Positions 4,026-39,922 of a DNA stretch of 59,128 bases are shown here, piece after piece (position 1 is the stretch's first letter; every line of letters starts with the position of its first letter). The notes beneath the pieces are model-generated. The model was given only the letters and a program-made list of their open reading frames with translations. It was not told the DNA's origin and made no database searches. Position numbers and translations under genes: made by a program. Origin of the DNA: a virus (Duplodnaviria; Caudoviricetes); IMG/VR virus record IMGVR_UViG_3300048554_000481, positions 1 to 59,128 of that record; one strand, written 5' to 3'.

Positions 4026-4319
4026 TTATGCCGCCACTTTGCCAATTATCATACTAGCCGGAACTCTGGTAACCGTTCTACCAAATGGTGTAGCACCTGT
4101 GTCCTGAACCTCTACAGTCTTTTGATTCATCTTAACAATAGTACCAACACGAACAACTCCACGTGATTCCCATTCAACGGTATCGCCTTTTTTAAGACCA
4201 CGTTTTGCTTTAGCACCGATATAATTCATTTGCAATTTCCAAACATTTGCCAACTCGTTCAAATCAGCTTGATTATCAATATCTCGCATTGCGGCGATTG
4301 CAGTTTCAAGTTTTGTCAT
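4026..4319 (-). CDS. Hypothetical early protein, SH3/KOW-like
   Basis: LKKGDTVEW..GTIVKMNQKTVEV. Confidence 0.55.
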   Translation of the reverse strand: MTKLETAIAAMRDIDNQADLNELANVWKLQMNYIGAKAKRGLKKGDTVEWESRGVVRVGTIVKMNQKTVEVQDTGATPFGRTVTRVPASMIIGKVAA

Positions 4320-24926: not shown

Positions 24927-25255
24927 TCGTAAGTTTCGCCTGTACTTCGAAAGAAGTTTTCGCTCCAAAATGCTTTGTCATCAATCCAAACATCGTAATG
25001 TTCTTTTTTACCAACACTAAGTTCATGATGCTTTGCACCCCAACTGTCTAGTTGACTTTTAGTAAGGTCATAGTAGTCTACCATACTTACTGCGCCTCTG
25101 GCTGTCATATACTTGATTGTATGCCCTGCATCATATAGTGCATTTACTTTGGCAATACGATCCATCATAGGTTCATGTAGTGCATAATTTTTCTTACCAT
25201 CTGGTTCGAATACCTCGTTACAAATGGTTCCGTCAATGTCTATAATATATCTCAT
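24923..25255 (-). CDS. HAD-like phosphatase (capsule-biosynthesis type)
   Basis: IDIDGTIC, TARG, WIDDKA. Confidence 0.8.
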   Translation of the reverse strand: MRYIIDIDGTICNEVFEPDGKKNYALHEPMMDRIAKVNALYDAGHTIKYMTARGAVSMVDYYDLTKSQLDSWGAKHHELSVGKKEHYDVWIDDKAFWSENFFRSTGETYE

Positions 25256-26181
25256 TTGAATAAACTGCTTACACTTTCTTCGTTTGTGATTCTTCGCATA
25301 GCTTCTCCGAAAAGCTCTGCAACTGTTACTTGTCTAATTTTTTTACTTGTATTCTGCATAGGAATACTATCACTAATTACTAACTCTTCTAGCACACTAT
25401 TGTCAACCTTTTTAGTTGCACCATTACTAAGTACGCCATGTGTAATGTATGCTCTAACACTAAGAGCACCTGCATCCATAATTGCTTTAGCGGCATTACA
25501 CAATGTACCGCCACTGTCTACAATATCGTCTACTAGTATTGCATGTTTATCTTTAACTTCGCCAATTAGGTTCATAACTTCTGCTACACCTGCTTTGGGT
25601 CTACGTTTATCAACAATAGCAACATCACCATAAAACATTTCTGCAAACTTTCTTGCACGAACAACACCGCCAGCATCTGGGCTAACAAACACTGTGCCTT
25701 CTGTACAGTTTACGTTTCGTTTGATATCTTTGGCAAAGACCACCCTGCTGGTAAGATCATCCACAGGAATATCAAAGAAACCTTGTATCTGACCAGCATG
25801 AAGATCCATAGTCAAAACTCTATCTGCACCTGCTTTGGTAAGCAAATCTGCAACTAGTTTTGCAGTAATAGGAGTACGACTTGCACTTTTCCTATCCTGT
25901 CTTGCATATCCATAGTATGGCATAACTGCTGATATACGTTGGGCACTGCTACGTTTTGCAGTATCTATCATAACCAGCAACTCCATTAAACTTTCGTTTA
26001 CAGGCATGCATGTACTATTCACTAAAAAAACATCCTTGCCCCGGATGTTCTCTTTTATTTCTACTAATATTTCACCGTCACTAAATCGTGTGACATCTGT
26101 GGGAACTAATTCTGTAAAGCAGTGTTCGGCAACCTTTTGAGCAAACGTAGGGTTGCTACCGCCACTAATGATTTTCATCAT
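25252..26181 (-). CDS. prs: Ribose-phosphate pyrophosphokinase
   Basis: FSDGE, YARQDRK, DLHAGQIQGFF, VSPDAGG, LVDDIVDSGGT. Confidence 0.95.
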   Translation of the reverse strand: MMKIISGGSNPTFAQKVAEHCFTELVPTDVTRFSDGEILVEIKENIRGKDVFLVNSTCMPVNESLMELLVMIDTAKRSSAQRISAVMPYYGYARQDRKSASRTPITAKLVADLLTKAGADRVLTMDLHAGQIQGFFDIPVDDLTSRVVFAKDIKRNVNCTEGTVFVSPDAGGVVRARKFAEMFYGDVAIVDKRRPKAGVAEVMNLIGEVKDKHAILVDDIVDSGGTLCNAAKAIMDAGALSVRAYITHGVLSNGATKKVDNSVLEELVISDSIPMQNTSKKIRQVTVAELFGEAMRRITNEESVSSLFK

Positions 26182-31957: not shown

Positions 31958-33073
31958 TTAATCTGATCTTTCTCCAACACCATAATCTATTGTTACAGGA
32001 AATCTAGGGATACCATCATTGCTCAATTCAAAGTATCTGCAAGTTGCCCAGTCTATATTTGGGTTTTCCAACAGTGTCTTTAACTGTGCTTGCGAACCTC
32101 TTAGTCCACTACTAAATGTTGTACCATCTTTCATTTTAAGAGTAAGTCTTTTAGCATATCCTGTCCAGGCACCTTGCCCTTCATGTACTTCAACTACTTC
32201 GTACTCTTCAGTAACAAACTCTTTTCTTTTAAGTAGACTCTTGCTACGTTTACACTGGTAAGGAGCATCCTGTCGTACCATCTGTCCTTCGTAACCAGCT
32301 TCTGTATACTCGCCATACAGCCTATCAATATCTGCACTGTTGTTTGCAACGTCTGTGTGTACAAGCACAATCATATTGCCCGACACATTATTAGCTAACC
32401 ATACCGAACGATCCATAAACAGTTTATCAGGATCATTTTTATCATACATATCGTAGATATGATATTCAACTAGTTCTGCACTTTCTGCAATCTCTTCTGG
32501 TCTGCACTTTACTTTACGAACCAAGCTAACAATCTTTTGAAAGTCTGCTTTAAGTTCATGATTGTAAAGTTCACCATCTAATACAACATTTGGGTTAGCT
32601 TCAATGATATGCTTTACACTTTCCCAAATATGTGGGCAACTGTTAATAGGCTTACCGCCTCTGGTGTGCATACCATGCTTGTCAATTACACAACGGATAC
32701 CATCTAATTTGGGTTGTGTAAATCCATCCTCAACTGGAGTTTTTGTAAAGTCGTGTGCTAACATAGGCTTGAACAGTTCGTAACTGTCAATATCATCTAT
32801 GTTTGCAAAATACTCTTTGTCAGCTTTTTTAGTCCATTCAGCTTGTGCTTCGAACTCAGCTTGACCTTTAGCAGTAGTAGCATTGCTTCTACCCACATTC
32901 TTTGCTATGCTCATATTCCAAACACTGGTGATCTTCTCACCATCAACTAGACCACTAATGCTACGGATACCAGCCATATCTTCATTGTCAAATCCAACTT
33001 CAACAGTCCATATTCTAACTTTACCTTTTGAATCTCTTTTGTAAAGTGGATCTAAACTAACTATATTCTGCAT
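31958..33073 (-). CDS. lig: ATP-dependent DNA ligase
   Basis: QPKLDGIRC, LDGELY, YEGQMVR, LLKRK, IPRFP. Confidence 0.92.
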   Translation of the reverse strand: MQNIVSLDPLYKRDSKGKVRIWTVEVGFDNEDMAGIRSISGLVDGEKITSVWNMSIAKNVGRSNATTAKGQAEFEAQAEWTKKADKEYFANIDDIDSYELFKPMLAHDFTKTPVEDGFTQPKLDGIRCVIDKHGMHTRGGKPINSCPHIWESVKHIIEANPNVVLDGELYNHELKADFQKIVSLVRKVKCRPEEIAESAELVEYHIYDMYDKNDPDKLFMDRSVWLANNVSGNMIVLVHTDVANNSADIDRLYGEYTEAGYEGQMVRQDAPYQCKRSKSLLKRKEFVTEEYEVVEVHEGQGAWTGYAKRLTLKMKDGTTFSSGLRGSQAQLKTLLENPNIDWATCRYFELSNDGIPRFPVTIDYGVGERSD

Positions 33074-33091
33074 ATATCACTCCTTAATTGT

Positions 33092-33127
33092 TATATACAG
33101 TATAGCACCAAGATGTCTTGTTGTCAA
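33092..33127 (-). promoter_or_regulatory. Early promoter of the repeated family (ligase)
   Basis: TTGACAacAAGACATCTTggtgcTATACT. Confidence 0.82.
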
Positions 33128-33213
33128 GCTCTTTTTGCTAATAAAAAGTTTATTTTTGCATTACGGATTTGTCTGATGGCACGTTTAAAGCACCAGAGCG
33201 TGTAATTGTTCAT
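33124..33213 (-). CDS. 29-aa basic peptide downstream of the glutamine riboswitch
   Basis: GGGAGA SD; MNNYTLWCFKRAIRQIRNAKINFLLAKRA. Confidence 0.6.
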   Translation of the reverse strand: MNNYTLWCFKRAIRQIRNAKINFLLAKRA

Positions 33214-33238
33214 AACACTTCTCCCTTTCGGTTAAAGT

Positions 33239-33284
33239 GCGTTCCTTCGCTAGTGCTACTTCCGTCCCTTACGGGATGAACGAT
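33239..33284 (-). ncRNA. Glutamine riboswitch (glnA RNA motif)
   Basis: AUCGUUCAUCCC-GUAA-GGGACGGAAGUAGC-ACUA-GCGAAGGAACGC fits the glnA consensus; TATAAATA at 33296-33303. Confidence 0.85.
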
Positions 33285-33298
33285 TTACTTAAAAATAT

Positions 33299-33451
33299 TT
33301 ATAACTGATGTACAAGATAGACTAATAACCAAATCAACAAACCTAGTGCGACACCTTTAGCCCAAGCTATCCAGGCTACTCCATACCAACTGATGTTTAA
33401 TGCTTCCTTGCCTCGTACTGTTTGTCTTTTATGCCACTCAATGAGCTTCAT
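33299..33451 (-). CDS. 50-aa membrane peptide
   Basis: MKLIEWHKRQ..WYGVAWIAWAKGVALGLLIWLL; AGGAG SD. Confidence 0.55.
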   Translation of the reverse strand: MKLIEWHKRQTVRGKEALNISWYGVAWIAWAKGVALGLLIWLLVYLVHQL

Positions 33452-33679
33452 ATCATACTCCTATGTCTGGATCCCTACCAAATCCCGGTCTTTTTGTGTT
33501 GGTTTGCTCTACTTCTATATGACAGTTTACATTACTAGTAGTATCTTTTAAAAAGTCAATAACAAGCCAACAGTCTTCTACACTTGGGAGACCGCCTTCT
33601 AATACATGGCCATTATCGTCAACTACATAAAACTTGTAGACTTTGCCGGGCCATGGTTTATGCTGGTCGATTGGAATTC

Positions 33680-33766
33680 TCATTTCATTAATCCTATCCA
33701 ATGTGTACAGTCGTCACAGGGATCATCATATTGATAAGAACGCCAATCTTCATTGGGATCTTCCAT
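33680..33766 (-). CDS. 28-aa acidic CxxC peptide
   Basis: MEDPNEDWRSYQYDDPCDDCTHWIGLMK directly after ATAAATA; stop overlaps the next ATG (ATGA). Confidence 0.5.
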   Translation of the reverse strand: MEDPNEDWRSYQYDDPCDDCTHWIGLMK

Positions 33767-34293
33767 GGTTATGTATTTATGGCTAAATATCGCAATAGAT
33801 AAGTACACATATAACAGTCAAGTACAGAAAGTGCTGACGTCAAACTCACAAGGAGAACGACATGTCCAAAGAAGATAACACTGGTAAAATGGAAGTAGCA
33901 GTAAGAATATTAGGCAACGAGTTAGTTGCACTAAAAATGGTAGTAGACGATTTTAAGATAAAATGGTTAATTTATGGTGTAGTAACTATTGTGGCACTAG
34001 GTTGGGCCGCTAGTAGTTTTGGACCAGCATTATTTGATATGGTAGGAACAGGAACCAATGGGTAAGAAAAAATCAAGAGCAACTCAAACAAGTAAAGGTG
34101 AAGTTGGATCACCTATGAAAACTAAATTAAGATCTAGCGATGAAGGCTATGCTTCACAACGTATGATGAATCAGCTGAACGCATTTAACAAGGGAAAACG
34201 TGTTATGGTAACTATTAAGAATCCAAACGGAGCAGAAACTAATAAACCATATATTCGTGTACCTGCTAAGGATGTATGGAAAAGTAGTAGGAG

Positions 34294-34656
34294 ATGAGTA
34301 CATTATTCTTATTTTTATTGTTAATCAAACACAGTATATGCGACTTAGCACTACAAAGTAGATTTGTTAACAAACACGGTGATAAGAAAAATCTTACAGA
34401 CCTTAAAGGTTATCTACATGCAGGTGACCACGCAATGGGAACATTTTTAGTAGCTCTACTCTTTGTAGGTATTTTGCCTGCATTGGGTGTTGCTATTGCA
34501 GACTTTGTACTGCATTTTATAATTGATTATACTAAACGCAGATACACACTTGCGAAAAACATTAAACAAAGTAATCGTAAATTTTGGTACATACAAAGTA
34601 TTGACCAAATGGCACACTATGGTTGCTATTTTATTTTTGTAATAATTCTTATATAG
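34294..34656 (+). CDS. DUF3307-like membrane protein
   Basis: KHSICDLALQ, H..IDY.K, DQMAH. Confidence 0.75.
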   Translation: MSTLFLFLLLIKHSICDLALQSRFVNKHGDKKNLTDLKGYLHAGDHAMGTFLVALLFVGILPALGVAIADFVLHFIIDYTKRRYTLAKNIKQSNRKFWYIQSIDQMAHYGCYFIFVIILI

Positions 34657-35815
34657 ATTCCAAATACTCTAAGGTCATCGGACCTATAACATCGACTGCT
34701 TTCATTTTACGCTGTGCAAGATAAAATTTAGTGTCATTTGCAATGTCTACCAAATCACGTTTAACACTTTTATTCATTCTTATTGAAGTCAACGTCGACG
34801 ATGTGTCAGGATTCTTTAATTGTCCGTGAACCTTATCGATTAACCAATTTGGTAAGTTCATACAGTTTAGTACACTATTGTCTGGTTTGATACCAAAAGT
34901 TAACATATATTTCCATTTTTTCTTATGAAAAAATTCTTCAATCTGAGGCAAATACTCGAAGTTGTACAAGTTTACTAGTAAGCTAATTTTTACATCCAAT
35001 ACTTTACTTCGGTGTGAAAATATAAAGTCTAAATTTTCTTCCATTTTCTTCCAAGTATGAGGCCAGCGTATGAATTCATAATTTTTATGTATTCCGTCTG
35101 TACTGATCCTAATTCTAGCCTGTTTGGTTTTAGATAATCTACGAATAATTTCATCATTCATTACGGTTCCGTTTGTAGTAATTTGTAATTCTAGTTGAGA
35201 ACAATCAATTTCATCTAATACTTTTTCAATGGGTTTCCAATTCTCTATTAACAAAGGTTCACCACCTTTTATATGAATGCTTTTTACCTTATAGTTTCTG
35301 AGAATATCAGCTGTAAGATTTGTTATATCTGCGTTTTTTGGTTGCTTGTCAATGTAGGTGTTCCAATGTTCAGGTAACTCTGCTTTTTGATACTTTGCTG
35401 ATACAGTTTCTATCAGACTACTCGTATTACCGTTACAAAACACACAAGCAAGATTGCATACATTACTTAAATCTAAATCTAGTCTTAGGAAATCAAAATC
35501 TGTTTTGTCATCTTTGCTTTGTCGGTTTATCACAGTTCTAGGACTGTCTACCATTGCCTTTTCTAAATTAGTGCAATTTATACATGAAGGATGTAAGTGT
35601 GAAGGATTTTCTTTAAACCATTTTTGATAATATTCTCTAGTAGGATGTTTTAAAATGCTTTGTACATCTACTTTGATATGCTTATATTGATCTTGTGGAA
35701 TCAGAGCCTTATGTGTATTACAACAAGGTCGGACATTAGTTAACAATTGATTATTTTGGTCAGGGTGAAAAGTAAGTCTGAGACCTTTATCAACATAGGC
35801 GCAGTAGTTATTCAT
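34649..35815 (-). CDS. Radical SAM protein with N-terminal twitch domain
   Basis: VRPCC..CINC; SNVCNLACVFC; GGEPLL; TTNGT. Confidence 0.85.
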   Translation of the reverse strand: MNNYCAYVDKGLRLTFHPDQNNQLLTNVRPCCNTHKALIPQDQYKHIKVDVQSILKHPTREYYQKWFKENPSHLHPSCINCTNLEKAMVDSPRTVINRQSKDDKTDFDFLRLDLDLSNVCNLACVFCNGNTSSLIETVSAKYQKAELPEHWNTYIDKQPKNADITNLTADILRNYKVKSIHIKGGEPLLIENWKPIEKVLDEIDCSQLELQITTNGTVMNDEIIRRLSKTKQARIRISTDGIHKNYEFIRWPHTWKKMEENLDFIFSHRSKVLDVKISLLVNLYNFEYLPQIEEFFHKKKWKYMLTFGIKPDNSVLNCMNLPNWLIDKVHGQLKNPDTSSTLTSIRMNKSVKRDLVDIANDTKFYLAQRKMKAVDVIGPMTLEYLESI

Positions 35816-37308: not shown

Positions 37309-37752
37309 CTATTCATGCTCTCCGCCATTGCCTCTGCCATTGCGACTTTGGAAGGCGGCAAACACATGTGGCTTACGTTTGGCTGTTTCAAATGTTGCTA
37401 CAGTAATTACAATGGCGGCAATCAACATAACGTGAGCCATTGCACTAATAGCAAATACAGTCCAACTGCCAACTAGCATAGCGAATGTGATACACCACAT
37501 CCATGCTAGCACTTGCATAAGCAAGTGTCTTACTTGTAAGTCCGGAATGTTTTTAAGTGGACTAACATCGCTGTTCATAACACTGTTCCAGCTGTTTACT
37601 ACAAATGTTCTCATTGGTGCGTATCCTTTTTCAAATATTACTCTAAGTGGGTAGTGTGCATCAGCATCATCACGAAATTCGATTGCGTCATTTACGTCAT
37701 CAAACAACTTAGATACTTTGTGCGTTTTAAAGAAAGCAGTTACTCTGTACAT
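37309..37752 (-). CDS. Conserved membrane hypothetical protein
   Basis: PLKNIPDLQVRHLLMQVLAWMWC..GGEHE. Confidence 0.6.
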   Translation of the reverse strand: MYRVTAFFKTHKVSKLFDDVNDAIEFRDDADAHYPLRVIFEKGYAPMRTFVVNSWNSVMNSDVSPLKNIPDLQVRHLLMQVLAWMWCITFAMLVGSWTVFAISAMAHVMLIAAIVITVATFETAKRKPHVFAAFQSRNGRGNGGEHE

Positions 37753-37780
37753 ATTCTATCCCTTAGTTTACAATTAAAAA

Positions 37781-38133
37781 CGCAACTATTCTGTTGCCAG
37801 GTCAGTTGCCAACCCCGGAAACCTAATTAGGCTGCCATTGCCATTTCTGGCGCATAATTGTCATTTGCAATTATAGTTTTTGATCATTTTCGGAATCACC
37901 CGGCAAACTCCACTCAATTTTCATATCTGTCGATCCTAGTTCAGCCCCATCAAAAGCACACTGTATATTTTCAGCCACACGTTTATTTCTTGTTATAATC
38001 AGGATTTGTTGTTTTTCCCTAATGTATACCAAATGTCTAACTTGTGCCAACTGCCTCTCAATGTGTTTATGGTGGAGCTGTGGGGTACTGCCCCCCAGTC
38101 CAGTCTACTTCCACGTTGCTTCAACGTTTACAA
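37781..38133 (-). ncRNA. ssrA: Circularly permuted two-piece tmRNA, alphaproteobacterial type
   Basis: Acceptor piece has T-arm UGGGG-GGCAGUA-CCCCA and ends CAGCUCCACCA at 38070. Coding piece starts GGGGCUGAACUAGGAUCGAC at 37948. G3.U70 pair present. Tag ANDNYAPEMAMAA-stop at 37868-37827. Confidence 0.93.
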
Positions 38134-38136
38134 GTA

Positions 38137-38167
38137 TATTTATATACTATGTTTTAGGTATTGTCAA
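38137..38167 (-). promoter_or_regulatory. Overlapping sigma70-type and T4 late-type promoters for tmRNA
   Basis: TTGACA at 38167-38162 with an AT-rich -10 region; perfect TATAAATA at 38144-38137. Confidence 0.7.
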
Positions 38168-38406
38168 GTCTCAATGGCATCTTTTAATACACATTTATAT
38201 TCAACGGTATCCCATTTGCCATCTGGTGGTATTAGTTGGTATATTGGAAGCATGTCATGACATTCTTTCTTAGTATCAAACCACTGCACATCTTGTGTTA
38301 AACAAGATCCGTTCAAACATACTGTTAGCAATATATGCCATATTACTTCCATTAGTTACGACCCATGTGTTTAGGGCCAACGTCTCTTGCTATCCAGTCT
38401 AGTAGT

Positions 38407-39495
38407 TTAAACCAACGCTTGCTGATACGGATCAACATCTAAGTACTTCCCCCATTCGGTATAATAGTGACGCATACCAACTTCGTCGTGTATTGTTGAG
38501 TTTTCATGTCTACCATGCAGTATATGTCTATTCTCAGTACCCGGTGCCATTGATGCTCCTTGTCCTGTTACACCTAATAGATCTTCATGTAGATTACGTC
38601 CAAAAGGTCCCCAAATAGTATTGTGATGTTTGATACGAGTTTGTCTTTCTTCTGGTGTATCTTTGCGTAGTCCGTAGCCCCTAAATTCAATTAGCACACT
38701 ATTAGGCCCTAGTGGAGTAACACTATCACTACGATAAGCACTGCCACGCAAGTTAAAGTTAAAGCCCGGAAACAAGTCTACCATATACCATTGGTTAGGA
38801 GGTAGATTAGGAAAACTAAGTTCGCCTCTATCACCGTCTTTATCAAACTCAGTATAGTTAACTGTGAAGCTACTTACATTAACATGCCCATTGTCAAAAG
38901 GAACATTCTTTCTTGCAAAGTATTCGTCGTTAAATCCTGTTACACGATTGAAGTAGTGCATGAAGTCGTGATAGAATTCACTGTTGGTATCATGCCATAG
39001 TTTATAGTTGGTAGGAATAATTGCTTTATGGTAATGAAATATTTCTAGTTCTTCAGTATCGATAGCATCTGCAATACAATCAAATGCACCCGCTGTCCAT
39101 TCTTCTACACTTTGAGTTGGATTAGGATCAAGTGTTACCCATACCATACCTCCATGCTTTACTTCACAATGTAGTTGTGGTTCAACTGTTACAATAGGTG
39201 CTTGTAGTTTACCTGCTGGTGCCCACCTATCAAAGATGGTTGAGCAACTATCATAGTTACGATATGCTCGTACACCATCTCCGGTATTGTACATAATAAT
39301 ATTATATCCAGCAATTTGTGATGTACGATAATCTAGTTCATTATACATCTCACTAATATGGCATACTGGTACCCATACTTTGCTAAAGATACTTTCAATT
39401 TCTTCGTCAAATATCTTTTGACTAGAATATATCTCGCTACTAACTGATTCTACTTTTGGTTTTGCTAACCAATTTTTATGATTGCGTGGTGGCAT
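38407..39495 (-). CDS. Ring-hydroxylating (Rieske-family) oxygenase alpha-like subunit with degenerate Rieske domain
   Basis: IYSSQKIFDEE.ESIFSKVWVPVCH; NYKLWHDTNSEFYH.DFMH and HEDL mononuclear-Fe region; no CxH..CxxH pair. Confidence 0.8.
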   Translation of the reverse strand: MPPRNHKNWLAKPKVESVSSEIYSSQKIFDEEIESIFSKVWVPVCHISEMYNELDYRTSQIAGYNIIMYNTGDGVRAYRNYDSCSTIFDRWAPAGKLQAPIVTVEPQLHCEVKHGGMVWVTLDPNPTQSVEEWTAGAFDCIADAIDTEELEIFHYHKAIIPTNYKLWHDTNSEFYHDFMHYFNRVTGFNDEYFARKNVPFDNGHVNVSSFTVNYTEFDKDGDRGELSFPNLPPNQWYMVDLFPGFNFNLRGSAYRSDSVTPLGPNSVLIEFRGYGLRKDTPEERQTRIKHHNTIWGPFGRNLHEDLLGVTGQGASMAPGTENRHILHGRHENSTIHDEVGMRHYYTEWGKYLDVDPYQQALV

Positions 39496-39847: not shown

Positions 39848-39922
39848 TGGCACCGGTTGGAGGAATCGAACCCCCGCCTTCAGTTTTGGAGACTGCCGTG
39901 CTACCACTAACACCAAACCGAT
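39848..39922 (-). tRNA. trnW: tRNA-Trp (CCA)
   Basis: Cloverleaf: ATCGGTT/AACCGGT acceptor, CTCCAAA anticodon loop, GGGGG-TTCGATT-CCTCC T-arm, encoded CCA. Confidence 0.92.

What the first reader, a model, noticed from the sequence alone, without database searches (positions are those of the whole stretch)
33124..33303. Late-promoter glutamine riboswitch in front of an unknown 29-aa peptide
Seen: TATAAATA, then a compact glnA-motif aptamer, then a CACUU/AAGUG stem enclosing the SD, then a basic peptide MNNYTLWCFKRAIRQIRNAKINFLLAKRA. Known: glnA-motif RNAs bind glutamine and in cyanobacteria control the glutamine synthetase inhibitor gene gifB. Inference: a nitrogen-status sensor in a phage of a heterotroph, producing a small effector that may act on glutamine synthetase or lysis timing.
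Basis: partly seen in the sequence, partly recalled or inferred. Interest (0 to 1): 0.72.

Follow-up and report, generated by a model that had tools for sequence, protein, structure and literature searches.

The report
Glutamine riboswitch controlling a phage micropeptide
A marine phage carries a glutamine-sensing RNA switch in front of a tiny, conserved, strongly basic helical peptide that also occurs behind the same switch in other marine phages and some marine bacteria, which suggests an unrecognised nitrogen-status regulator outside cyanobacteria.

Summary
On the minus strand, Rfam's Glutamine riboswitch model RF01739 hits 33284..33236 at 57.3 bits (cut-off 35). It is preceded by TATAAATA and followed by a CACUU/AAGUG helix around the Shine-Dalgarno (SD) sequence, then a 29-aa ORF (33213..33124).

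The helix covaries across 37 related RNAs. The ORF belongs to a conserved, unnamed micropeptide family (M-x-x-aromatic-x-x-[W/Y]-C-…basic helix).

In 122 phage records, 118 of 122 aptamer units are followed directly by an SD plus an 18-78-aa ORF. The window's family is the largest of these groups (46 of 118). It includes an unannotated ORF in the cultured OM43 phage Melnitz, where the switch was published as "controlling ssrA".

The same cassette (promoter, tandem aptamers, 35-aa peptide, terminator) lies in marine Burkholderiales chromosomes. Those genomes have glutamine synthetase (GS) but no GlnE (0 of 6), against 137 of 151 genomes with GlnE in an order-wide sample.

Best reading: a translational ON switch that makes a glutamine-induced effector peptide. 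The target is unknown. A GS-inactivating factor analogous to cyanobacterial IF7/IF17 is the leading guess (about 35%), and it is not homologous to them.

Glutamine riboswitches in such phages are already published. The link to this peptide family and the bacterial cassette did not turn up in my literature searches.

The parts
33296..33303 (-). TATAAATA, a T4-late-promoter-like element. It overlaps the stop codon of the upstream 50-aa ORF and ends 11 nt before the aptamer.
   Evidence: exact match; all 5 window copies are on the minus strand, but the count is not enriched; a TAAATA core starts 8-22 nt before P1 in 54 of 119 related units against a 1.3% background, peaking at -12/-13; the window's copy is at -19. 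Use as a promoter and its timing are inferred, not shown.
33236..33284 (-). Glutamine-I riboswitch aptamer (glnA motif, RF01739): P1 CGUUC/GAACG, P2 UCCC/GGGA, P3 GC/GC, junction sequences ACGGAAGUA and GAAGGAACG.
   Evidence: 57.3 bits, cut-off 35. (P1 invariant; P2 and P3 covary in 37 sequences).
33215..33240 (-). Expression platform: a hairpin with GCACUUU (33240..33234) paired to GAAGUGU (33221..33215), plus an inner CC/GG pair. It encloses the SD and ends 1-2 nt before the AUG. Its first C (33239) is the nucleotide that follows P1, the 'linchpin' C of the solved aptamer.
   Evidence: in the MFE fold. (RNAalifold predicts the 5-bp core on its own). (91.4% of cells paired; one pair UA:18/CG:17; closing C-G 37 of 37). 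(hairpin -10.9 kcal/mol, -7.0 if G33240 and C33239 are withheld).
33221..33225 (-). Shine-Dalgarno GGGAG, 7 nt before the AUG.
   Evidence: Read from the sequence. A purine-rich SD is present at this place in all 37 aligned relatives.
33124..33213 (-). 29-aa micropeptide gene (MNNYTLWCFKRAIRQIRNAKINFLLAKRA): 7 K/R, no D/E. A family member is predicted to be a single alpha-helix.
   Evidence: ORF. (46-member cluster). (third-position excess 775 against 473/491; the other two frames are closed in 33 and 35 of 37). (ungapped alignment). (26 representative clusters; P0010 differs by one residue). (AF2 of a 35-aa family member: helix 3-34, pLDDT 91.9).
33099..33127 (-). Boundary of the unit: a sigma-70-like promoter (TTGACA, 17 nt, TG-n-TATACT, 11 of 12 matches). 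Its -35 box overlaps the peptide's TGA stop. It serves the ATP-dependent DNA ligase gene (33073..31958).
   Evidence: promoter scan; no terminator-like site in 32500..34000. (Pfam DNA_ligase_A_M and OB_2).

Best explanation
The region is a self-contained regulatory cassette on the minus strand.

A promoter-like TATAAATA would start an RNA whose 5' end is a glutamine-I riboswitch aptamer. Directly after P1, the sequence CACUU pairs with AAGUG. This forms a hairpin that holds the Shine-Dalgarno sequence and reaches to within 2 nt of the AUG of a 29-aa ORF.

Without glutamine the hairpin blocks initiation. When glutamine binds, the C that follows P1 (C33239) is recruited into the aptamer as the 'linchpin' pair. 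The hairpin loses its closing pairs and the peptide is translated, so this would be an ON switch.

The product is a strongly basic, probably all-helical micropeptide of a conserved, unnamed family. That family is the commonest cargo of glutamine riboswitches in the marine phage contigs I sampled. It is also the cargo of the only glutamine riboswitches detected in the two marine Burkholderiales genomes I scanned with the Rfam model.

Shown here: the aptamer, the covarying helix, the conserved coding ORF and the family's distribution.

Inferred: ligand binding, ON polarity (about 70%), promoter use and the peptide's target.

My leading guess for the target (about 35%) is glutamine synthetase. 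The peptide would be a functional analogue, not a homologue, of the cyanobacterial inactivating factors IF7/IF17. It would close a glutamine-to-GS feedback loop that the phage brings along.

The confidence given (0.75) is for the core claim: a functional glutamine riboswitch that controls translation of a real, conserved micropeptide. It does not cover the target.
For: Aptamer: 57.3 bits against 35, with all highly conserved consensus positions matched.

Platform helix:
- Predicted de novo by RNAalifold on 37 distinct relatives.
- 95.4% of cells are paired in the whole structure, against 87.5% in shuffles (0 of 500 reach it) and 32-53% when partners are slid.
- Helix 4 has a UA:18/CG:17 pair.
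- The closing C-G is invariant in 37 of 37. Its C is the nucleotide after P1, which the solved structure pairs with G23 on ligand binding (review PMC11477058, section 2.3 read).
- Klähn 2018 (PMC6212724, passages read) showed ON regulation for gifB. They proposed exactly this melting of an RBS-blocking duplex that starts at that C.

Peptide is real:
- 118 of 122 aptamer units (excluding the first copy of tandems) in 122 records have an SD plus an ORF of 18-78 aa.
- The window's cluster has 46 of 118.
- Codon-position pattern and closed alternative frames.
- 26 representative clusters among 1.84 billion proteins, nearly all 29-58 aa and stand-alone.
- The cultured phage Melnitz has the homologue MTLYQQWCY…, unannotated, right after its riboswitch. 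The cultured SAR11 phage Mosig has TAAATA, the aptamer and an annotated 51-aa ORF of another cargo family.

Bacterial cassette:
- 7 of 7 genome hits are marine Beta/Burkholderiales MAGs or SAGs with a sigma-70-like promoter and tandem aptamers. In the 6 loci that hold the whole ORF, a 35-48-aa peptide of the same family and a terminator-like hairpin with a T-run follow; in the seventh (L128) the locus ends inside the ORF.
- The context is chromosomal.

GS idea:
- Those genomes have GS (5 of 5, plus G120), PII (5 of 5) and GlnD (4 of 5).
- They have no GlnE (0 of 5; G120 also lacks it).
- GlnE is found in 137 of 151 genomes of an order-level sample.

RNA libraries: one contig (X1) matches 33122..33280 with no difference, that is aptamer to stop codon. 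This is weak evidence; see evidence against.
Against: - No ligand-binding, reporter or proteomic data exist for this RNA or peptide.
- In a simple energy model, withholding G33240 and C33239 only weakens the hairpin from -10.9 to -7.0 kcal/mol. The switch may need more than the linchpin, or it may work otherwise.
- TATAAATA is not enriched in the window. It sits 6-7 nt further from P1 than the family mode. Among cluster-0 loci only the window has the full TATAAAT (1 of 45).
- No late-transcription genes were seen in this 18% fragment.
- The covariation counts come from related sequences, so they are not independent events.
- The peptide matches no family: Pfam, PHROGs and NCBIfam each gave 0 of 46. 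It lacks the YRG/DUF4278 signature of IF17-like proteins.
- The GlnE absence concerns one lineage of incomplete MAGs or SAGs, which is effectively one evolutionary event. 12 other GlnE-less genomes in the sample have no riboswitch.
- Buchholz 2022 state that OM43 hosts lack glnA (passage read). However, Gifford 2016 (PMC5120137, table passage read) list a type I GS in OM43 strain NB0046. I could not test this myself.
- Contigs from RNA libraries cannot prove transcription, and DNA may be present in those libraries.
Confidence: 0.75

Rival explanations
1. The switch and peptide are as described, but the peptide's target is not glutamine synthetase. A 7+ charged amphipathic helix could bind RNA or the ribosome. 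It might be tied to trans-translation, since in many phage loci the cassette is fused to the 3' end of the two-piece tmRNA gene.
For: - In one search, cluster-0 cassettes lie directly after sequence resembling the tmRNA 3' end in at least 9 loci: L001, L026 and L084 (Melnitz-like) and L028, L064, L055, L082, L088 and L105. They lie directly after a tRNA-like 3' end in L049, L054 and L094.
- the 147-aa gene that follows the tmRNA in the window follows the peptide in L105 and L094.
- The peptide is arginine/lysine-rich and helical.
- It shows no similarity to IF7/IF17.
Against: - In the bacterial genomes the cassette stands alone beside a thioesterase gene, with its own promoter and terminator.
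- In the window it is 4.5 kb from the tmRNA.
- Adjacency to RNA genes may only reflect a common insertion hot-spot.
- It gives no reason why glutamine should be the signal.
Confidence: 0.3
2. The peptide is a membrane-active or lysis-timing factor. Glutamine accumulation at the end of infection would trigger lysis.
For: - Cationic amphipathic helices can perturb membranes (general knowledge).
- A late-promoter-like motif lies upstream.
- Buchholz 2022 (passages read) speculate on riboswitch-timed lysis.
Against: - The same cassette is a chromosomal gene of free-living bacteria, where a lysis trigger makes little sense.
- There is no hydrophobic segment long enough to span a membrane (sequence).
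- No lysis genes are adjacent in the window; the neighbours are DNA ligase, radical SAM and small ORFs.
Confidence: 0.08
3. The riboswitch regulates something other than the small ORF: the tmRNA (the published reading for Melnitz) or the downstream DNA ligase. The ORF would be incidental.
For: - Buchholz 2022 annotate the aptamer inside the 3' part of ssrA and call ssrA riboswitch-controlled.
- In the window no terminator separates the peptide ORF from the ligase gene.
Against: - In the window the tmRNA lies 4.5 kb upstream of the aptamer. In Melnitz it is also upstream, so a 5'-leader-type switch cannot act on it.
- The platform encloses the SD of the small ORF in 37 of 37 relatives.
- The ORF is conserved as protein while its neighbours differ between loci.
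- The ligase has its own 11-of-12 promoter and its own SD.
- In 6 of the 7 bacterial loci a terminator-like hairpin follows the ORF.
Confidence: 0.04
4. It is an OFF switch. Glutamine binding stabilises P1 and a coaxially stacked platform helix, which lowers peptide synthesis when glutamine is high.
For: - P1 and the platform helix are directly adjacent and share G33240, so stacking is conceivable.
- The computed loss on withholding the linchpin C is only about 4 kcal/mol.
- Weinberg 2010 (passage read) originally inferred down-regulation under nitrogen depletion only, which does not itself fix the mechanism.
Against: - Both glutamine riboswitch classes tested behaved as ON switches (Klähn 2018, passages; Huang 2019, PMC6698751, introduction and discussion passages).
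- The invariant C-G closing pair uses the very C that the ligand-bound aptamer takes (PMC11477058).
Confidence: 0.15

Closest known systems
Glutamine-I riboswitch of Synechocystis gifB (controls the GS-inactivating factor IF17; Klähn et al. 2018, PMC6212724)
   Same: - Same Rfam family, RF01739.
- The aptamer is followed at once by a short duplex that starts at the C after P1 and blocks the RBS.
- The cargo is a small regulatory protein.
- The expected logic is glutamine-ON.
   Different: - The cargo here is a 29-aa helical peptide with no DUF4278/YRG motif and no detectable similarity to IF17 or IF7.
- The element is in a phage, probably of a non-cyanobacterial host.
- The duplex pairs with the SD-AUG spacer and encloses the SD, rather than pairing mainly with the SD itself.
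- GS inhibition is unproven.
Glutamine riboswitch of Methylophilales phage Melnitz and related pelagimyophage genomes (Buchholz et al. 2022, PMC9004378)
   Same: - 85% identical over the aptamer plus platform.
- Homologous peptide ORF directly downstream.
- An alpha-type two-piece tmRNA is present in both phages.
   Different: - In Melnitz the aptamer abuts the 3' end of ssrA and was read as controlling ssrA. The peptide ORF is not annotated there; an opposite-strand ORF is.
- In the window the cassette is 4.5 kb from the tmRNA, behind its own TATAAATA.
- The window phage is not a close relative: no other blastn match in a 2.8-kb query, and its ligase is closest to those of alphaproteobacterial phages at about 43%.
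Downstream-peptide (glutamine-II, RF01704) motif before short DUF4278 ORFs in marine picocyanobacteria (Weinberg 2010; Klähn 2018)
   Same: - A glutamine aptamer sits immediately upstream of a conserved 17-100-aa ORF.
- It is abundant in marine sequence.
- Peptide coding is supported by substitution patterns.
   Different: - Different aptamer class: the window scores only for RF01739.
- Different peptide family.
- Host range is outside cyanobacteria.
Pelagibacter phage Mosig riboswitch locus
   Same: - TAAATA 6 nt before the aptamer.
- The aptamer is followed by an SD and a small basic ORF.
- The host is a cultured heterotroph (SAR11).
   Different: The cargo is a 51-aa peptide of another family (…DPRMQGI; cluster 3). 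P1 carries a compensatory CGUUU/AAACG change.

Membership tests
Glutamine riboswitch, class I (glnA motif, Rfam RF01739) | Score at or above the curated Rfam gathering threshold over the whole model | tested here: met
   57.3 bits against 35, model positions 1-53 of 53, E 5e-10. 1.2e-13 in the own-genome search.
Glutamine riboswitch, class I (glnA motif, Rfam RF01739) | Three-helix junction (P1, P2, P3) with conserved junction strands ACGGAAGUA and GAAGGAACG | tested here: met
   The alignment to the consensus shows all of them. In 37 relatives P1 is invariant while P2 and P3 keep pairing through changes on both sides.
Glutamine riboswitch, class I (glnA motif, Rfam RF01739) | A C directly 3' of P1 is available for the ligand-dependent 'linchpin' pair | tested here: met
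   C33239 is present and invariant in 37 of 37 relatives. Its role is taken from PMC11477058 section 2.3 and Klähn 2018, not tested here.
Glutamine riboswitch, class I (glnA motif, Rfam RF01739) | Selective binding of L-glutamine and ligand-dependent gene control | not testable with these tools
   Needs in-line probing or ITC, and a reporter assay.
GS-inactivating factors IF7/IF17 and IF17-like DUF4278 proteins | DUF4278 domain / YRG motif, or similarity to IF7 | tested here: not met
   Pfam: 0 of 46 family members match any family at E<=0.01. The window peptide has no hit at E<=1, whereas two YRG cargo peptides from other loci hit DUF4278 at 19.9 and 23.4 bits, under the 25.3 cut-off. No IF7 sequence was available to compare directly.
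GS-inactivating factors IF7/IF17 and IF17-like DUF4278 proteins | Expression placed under a glutamine riboswitch | tested here: met
GS-inactivating factors IF7/IF17 and IF17-like DUF4278 proteins | Binds and inhibits glutamine synthetase | not testable with these tools
   Needs biochemistry. Only context is available: the cassette-bearing bacteria have GS and lack GlnE.
T4-type late promoter | TATAAATA consensus just upstream of the transcribed unit | tested here: met
   33303..33296, 11 nt before the aptamer. A TAAATA core is positionally enriched in relatives.
T4-type late promoter | The phage encodes the late transcription machinery (gp55-type sigma, gp33 co-activator), and the motif is used late in infection | tested here: inconclusive
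   No window ORF matched Melnitz's annotated late-transcription co-activator in tblastn; only two window ORFs matched locus L001 at all. A gp44-like clamp loader is present. The window is only about 18% of the genome. Timing needs transcriptomics.
Glutamine-II riboswitch (Downstream-peptide motif, RF01704) | Match to RF01704 | tested here: not met
   The whole-window Rfam scan lists only RF01739 at this place.

The most novel reading that the evidence does not exclude
Glutamine-riboswitch-controlled micropeptides of this family are the missing post-translational brake on glutamine synthetase in marine proteobacteria that have lost the adenylyltransferase GlnE. This would be a convergent counterpart of cyanobacterial IF7/IF17. 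Large marine phages of heterotrophs (OM43 phages and this phage, with SAR11 phages carrying sister cargo families) would have captured the whole sensor-effector cassette. They would put it behind late-type promoters or tmRNA genes to throttle host nitrogen assimilation according to the infected cell's glutamine pool.
Probability: 0.3. Interest if true: 0.8.

Novelty: new variant of a known kind. Interest (0 to 1): 0.6.

Why it matters

This analysis shows the riboswitch is the standard leader of several micropeptide families in marine phage contigs. One of these families is shared between phages of heterotrophs and the chromosomes of a GlnE-less marine Burkholderiales lineage.

This has three consequences:
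- It corrects a published annotation. In Melnitz the switch most likely controls an unannotated 32-aa ORF, not ssrA.
- It defines a testable sensor-effector module in a culturable phage-host pair (Melnitz and OM43).
- If the GS link holds, riboswitch-plus-peptide control of nitrogen assimilation extends beyond cyanobacteria and makes it a phage auxiliary function.

Tried and rejected
- **Co-folding of peptide and GS.** Complex prediction with the cognate GS of a cassette-bearing bacterium (two copies) and the 35-aa peptide alignment scored 0.00, 'no answer'. It is neither for nor against binding.
- **ESM Atlas look-alikes.** No usable hit for L117's peptide; best score 0.89 for L127's, below the lead threshold.
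- **PDB profile search with the family.** Only E of about 0.5 noise.
- **Family libraries.** PHROGs, NCBIfam and Pfam each gave 0 of 46 members matched.
- **The search for homologous proteins.** It would not take a 35-aa query. I used the representative library instead.
- **Ren et al. 2015.** Not held. Its content is cited only through Klähn 2018 and PMC11477058.
- **An anti-P1 pairing, GUUCAU (33281..33276) with AUGAAC (33213..33208).** It appears in the window's MFE fold, but it is not conserved: a second codon able to pair occurs in only 34 of 112 distinct cargo ORFs, and in 16 of 41 in the window's cluster (the script's last background line crashed). I dropped it as a family mechanism.
- **Are the cassette-bearing bacteria OM43?** The RuMP marker HxlA was over cut-off in 0 of 5 and 0 of 5 genomes, so they are not OM43-like methylotrophs. 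I therefore could not check Buchholz's statement that OM43 lacks glnA. Gifford 2016 lists a type I GS in OM43 strain NB0046.
- **RNA-library runs.** They hold only 5-9% of the words of a 4-kb stretch. When laid, they give short contigs, and parts without cover mean nothing.
- **Whole-window TATAAATA enrichment.** None found.
Full report
**What is there**

Reading 5' to 3':
- A 50-aa ORF (33451..33299) ends with a TAA that lies inside TATAAATA (33303..33296).
- Eleven bases later the Rfam Glutamine riboswitch model RF01739 matches 33284..33236 over its whole length: 57.3 bits, gathering score 35, E 5e-10 (repeated).
- Directly after P1 comes GCACUUU. It pairs with GAAGUGU (33221..33215) in a hairpin whose loop holds the SD GGGAG (33225..33221). 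The single-sequence MFE fold contains this hairpin.
- ATG at 33213 opens a 29-codon ORF ending at 33124.
- Its TGA overlaps the -35 box of an 11-of-12 sigma-70-like promoter (33127..33099). That promoter precedes an ATP-dependent DNA ligase gene.
- No terminator-like site lies in 32500..34000.

**The phage**

The window is an IMG/VR virus record that CheckV rates 18% complete.
- It carries a gp44-like clamp loader, a PRPP synthetase and a radical SAM protein.
- It has an alpha-type two-piece tmRNA at 38178..37779 and a tRNA.
- Its ligase is closest, at about 43%, to ligases of phages of Alphaproteobacteria.
- The only blastn match of a 2.8-kb query to 50,697 phage records is the aptamer plus platform of the four Methylophilales phage Melnitz genomes, at 85%.

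The host is not known.

**Is the small ORF real?**

I scanned IMG/VR for the two invariant junction strands of the aptamer.

Together with the window and Melnitz, these 122 records hold 135 aptamers, 13 of which are the first copy of a tandem pair. Of the remaining 122 units, 118 are followed within 75 nt by an SD and an ORF of at least 15 codons. Complete ORFs are 18-78 aa long. Three of the four exceptions run off the end of the locus. The fourth, L102, has an ORF but no SD by my rule.

blastp clustering gives nine groups. The largest, 46 of 118, contains the window's peptide. Other groups:
- A 39-member group that merges YRG-repeat peptides with two other types. The two YRG peptides I tested hit DUF4278 just under its cut-off, at 19.9 and 23.4 bits against 25.3.
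- A 64-aa GTSGY family (15 members).
- A …DPRLQxI family (8 members).

Within the window's group the first 26 or so residues align without gaps: M-x-x-[W/Y/F]-x-x-[W/Y]-C-[R/F/Y/W]-[K/R], followed by a basic helix.

Coding evidence:
- Among 12 close relatives, pairwise differences at codon positions 1, 2 and 3 are 473, 491 and 775.
- The two other frames carry a stop within 27 codons in 33 and 35 of 37 distinct genes.
- A profile of the family finds 26 representative clusters (E<=1e-3) among 1.84 billion proteins. Nearly all are 29-58 aa and stand-alone.
- One of these, P0010, differs from the window peptide by one residue.
- Where sources name them at all, it is 'hypothetical protein'.
- Pfam, PHROGs and NCBIfam match 0 of 46 members.
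- AlphaFold2 of a 35-aa member with the family alignment gives a single helix, residues 3-34, pLDDT 91.9.
- The window peptide has 7 Lys/Arg and no acidic residue (sequence).

**The platform helix**

I aligned 37 distinct RNAs of this group from P1 to the AUG. RNAalifold, given no hint, returns P1, P2, P3 and a 5-bp helix between the five bases after P1 and the five bases ending 2-3 nt before the AUG.

Counting my own six-pair version:
- 95.4% of cells are standard pairs, against 87.5% after shuffling (0 of 500 shuffles reach it) and 32-53% with partners slid by 1-3 columns.
- In the platform helix one pair is UA in 18 and CG in 17 sequences. Another is UG 18, UA 14, CG 3. The closing C-G is invariant (37 of 37).

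These sequences are related, so the counts are not independent events. The helix is nonetheless clearly maintained.

**How it most likely works**

The invariant C is the base that follows P1. In the solved glutamine-I aptamer, ligand binding inserts G23 to pair with exactly this C (C60). I read this in section 2.3 of review PMC11477058. The primary paper, Ren 2015, is not held.

Klähn et al. 2018 (PMC6212724, passages read) showed that the Synechocystis gifB and a Prochlorococcus leader are glutamine-ON switches. They proposed that this C and the bases after it form an RBS-blocking duplex that glutamine binding melts. The window has the same arrangement.

In a simple model the hairpin is -10.9 kcal/mol, and -7.0 when G33240 and C33239 are withheld. 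I therefore read it as a translational ON switch, at about 70%. Ligand binding and polarity are inferred.

**Promoter**

TATAAATA is not over-represented in the window: 5 copies against 8.0 expected, although all five are on the coding strand.

In the related phage units a TAAATA core starts 8-22 nt before P1 in 54 of 119 units (46 of 104 distinct upstream sequences), against 1.3% at random positions. There is a sharp peak at -12/-13. The window's copy is at -19. The cultured SAR11 phage Mosig shows the same layout.

Other copies have no such motif. They sit directly behind sequence resembling the tmRNA 3' end (Melnitz-like and two other lineages) or behind a tRNA-like 3' end.

The closest relative of the window phage, L049 (65-77% protein identity), has the cassette behind a tRNA-like 3' end in a different neighbourhood. 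So the cassette moves as a unit. 'Late' timing rests on T4 knowledge and is untested.

**Published precedent and a correction**

Buchholz et al. 2022 (PMC9004378, passages read) reported the glutamine riboswitch of Melnitz, Mosig and pelagimyophage MAGs. They described the Melnitz ssrA as 'controlled by' it.

In the Melnitz record the aptamer overlaps the annotated 3' end of ssrA. An opposite-strand ORF is annotated over the next 100 nt. The plus strand there encodes MTLYQQWCYLKAQKEYRRRQKILMYFRIRLKG behind the same platform. The switch thus lies downstream of ssrA and upstream of an unannotated homologue of the window's peptide.

My literature searches found no paper that links phage glutamine riboswitches to these ORFs. 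Supplements were not visible.

**Bacterial counterpart**

A stricter pattern (aptamer + CAC + GUGUUAUG) run on one genome per species returned 7 loci. All are marine Beta/Burkholderiales MAGs or SAGs.

Each has a TTGACA-type promoter and two aptamers in tandem. In the six loci that hold the whole ORF, a 35-48-aa peptide of the same family (e.g. MNLWTQYCRRQAR…) and a stem-loop plus T-run follow; in the seventh (L128) the locus ends inside the ORF. The cassette lies next to a thioesterase gene in ordinary chromosomal context, with one contig of 198 kb.

In an order-level sample, RF01739 occurs in 2 of 151 genomes.

Five cassette-bearing genomes were checked:

| Feature | Result |
|---|---|
| GS | 5 of 5 |
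| NtrB-like kinase next to glnA | seen |
| PII | 5 of 5 |
| GlnD | 4 of 5 |
| GlnE | 0 of 5 |

GlnE is found in 137 of 151 genomes of the order sample, which includes one unpublished genome, G031. Both riboswitch genomes in that sample are among the 14 without it. One of them, G120, has GS.

So 6 of 6 cassette genomes examined lack GlnE. The genomes of L124 and L128 were not examined. This is one lineage of incomplete genomes, so it counts as one event. Still, it is the same situation as in cyanobacteria (no adenylylation, GS controlled by small proteins), and that makes GS the leading candidate target.

**Limits on function**

- The peptide is not a homologue of IF17-like proteins.
- Buchholz's argument that OM43 has no glnA conflicts with Gifford 2016 (PMC5120137, table passage), which lists a type I GS in OM43 NB0046. 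I could not test either claim, because the bacteria I reached are not RuMP methylotrophs.
- The recurrent fusion to tmRNA genes keeps an RNA- or ribosome-directed role open.
- A lysis role fits poorly with a chromosomal gene of free-living bacteria.

**Expression**

Ten listed runs from four studies, seven of them on record as RNA, hold small parts of a 4-kb stretch. I laid four runs from three studies.
- One 160-nt contig (run X1) equals 33122..33280 without a difference, that is aptamer through stop codon.
- A second run of the same study has a 94%-like variant across 33210..33359.
- A third study has a relative's aptamer continuing into another family member's start.

Contigs cannot show strand, ends or true transcription, so this is only a weak hint.

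**Verdict**

This is a genuine glutamine-I riboswitch with a conserved, covarying translational platform. It drives a real micropeptide gene of a widespread but unnamed family.

It is a new variant of a known kind:
- Known: the aptamer class, the riboswitch-small-protein logic, and its presence in these phages.
- New, as far as my searches show: the peptide family, its identification as the regulated gene, and its bacterial counterpart in GlnE-less marine Burkholderiales.

Noticed in passing
window 37779-38178 (-) and 39848-39922 (-): An alpha-type two-piece (permuted) tmRNA gene (Rfam, 128.6 bits) and a tRNA-Trp(CCA). ARAGORN reported the tRNA but not the tmRNA. A TATAAATA lies inside the tmRNA gene at 38137-38144.
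   Followed up: partly
L001 (Melnitz MZ577097) 4070-4168 (+): An unannotated 32-aa ORF homologous to the window peptide follows the riboswitch. The record instead annotates an opposite-strand ORF (gene 89) over it, and extends the ssrA feature into the aptamer.
   Followed up: yes
L123-L129 (marine Burkholderiales genomes); L008, L041, L061, L072, L075 (viral contigs): Tandem glutamine aptamers lie before one peptide gene. The phage copies L041 and L072 share the second aptamer almost letter for letter with the bacterial cassette, and their peptides are 49-55% identical to it. This suggests recent host-phage exchange.
   Followed up: partly
G001-G005, G120 (genomes of the bacterial loci): GlnE was not found in any of six riboswitch-bearing genomes, although GS, PII and mostly GlnD are present. 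GlnE is present in 137 of 151 genomes of an order-level sample.
   Followed up: partly
window 33099-33127 (-): A near-consensus sigma-70 promoter with an extended -10 (TTGACA, 17 nt, TGcTATACT). Its -35 box overlaps the stop codon of the peptide ORF. It lies in front of the DNA ligase gene.
   Followed up: no
window 33299-33451 (-): A 50-aa ORF with a hydrophobic C-terminal stretch (…WIAWAKGVALGLLIWLLVYLV…), a possible small membrane protein. It has no match in Pfam or PHROGs.
   Followed up: no
window 33276-33281 and 33208-33213 (-): The 5' strand of P1 plus the next bases (GUUCAU) is perfectly complementary to AUGAAC, the start codon plus codon 2. The two pair in the MFE fold. This is not conserved in the family.
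   Followed up: yes
P0001 (72 aa, protein library): One library protein is two copies of the peptide fused through a translated platform sequence. It looks like a tandem duplication of the cassette read as one ORF.
   Followed up: no
literature: Buchholz 2022 state that OM43 lacks glnA. Gifford 2016 (PMC5120137) list 'Glutamine synthetase, type I' (NB46_00305) next to ntrB in OM43 strain NB0046.
   Followed up: partly
window 34649-35815 (-), 38407-39495 (-), 25252-26181 (-): Auxiliary-type genes: a radical SAM protein, a Rieske-type ring-hydroxylating oxygenase alpha-subunit domain, and a ribose-phosphate pyrophosphokinase.
   Followed up: no
L105 13479-13565 with 13583 onward; L094: The homologue of window ORF 37309-37752 (147 aa, directly after the tmRNA in the window) directly follows the riboswitch peptide in these loci. 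This suggests the ancestral order tmRNA, riboswitch, peptide, 147-aa gene, with the cassette relocated in the window.
   Followed up: partly
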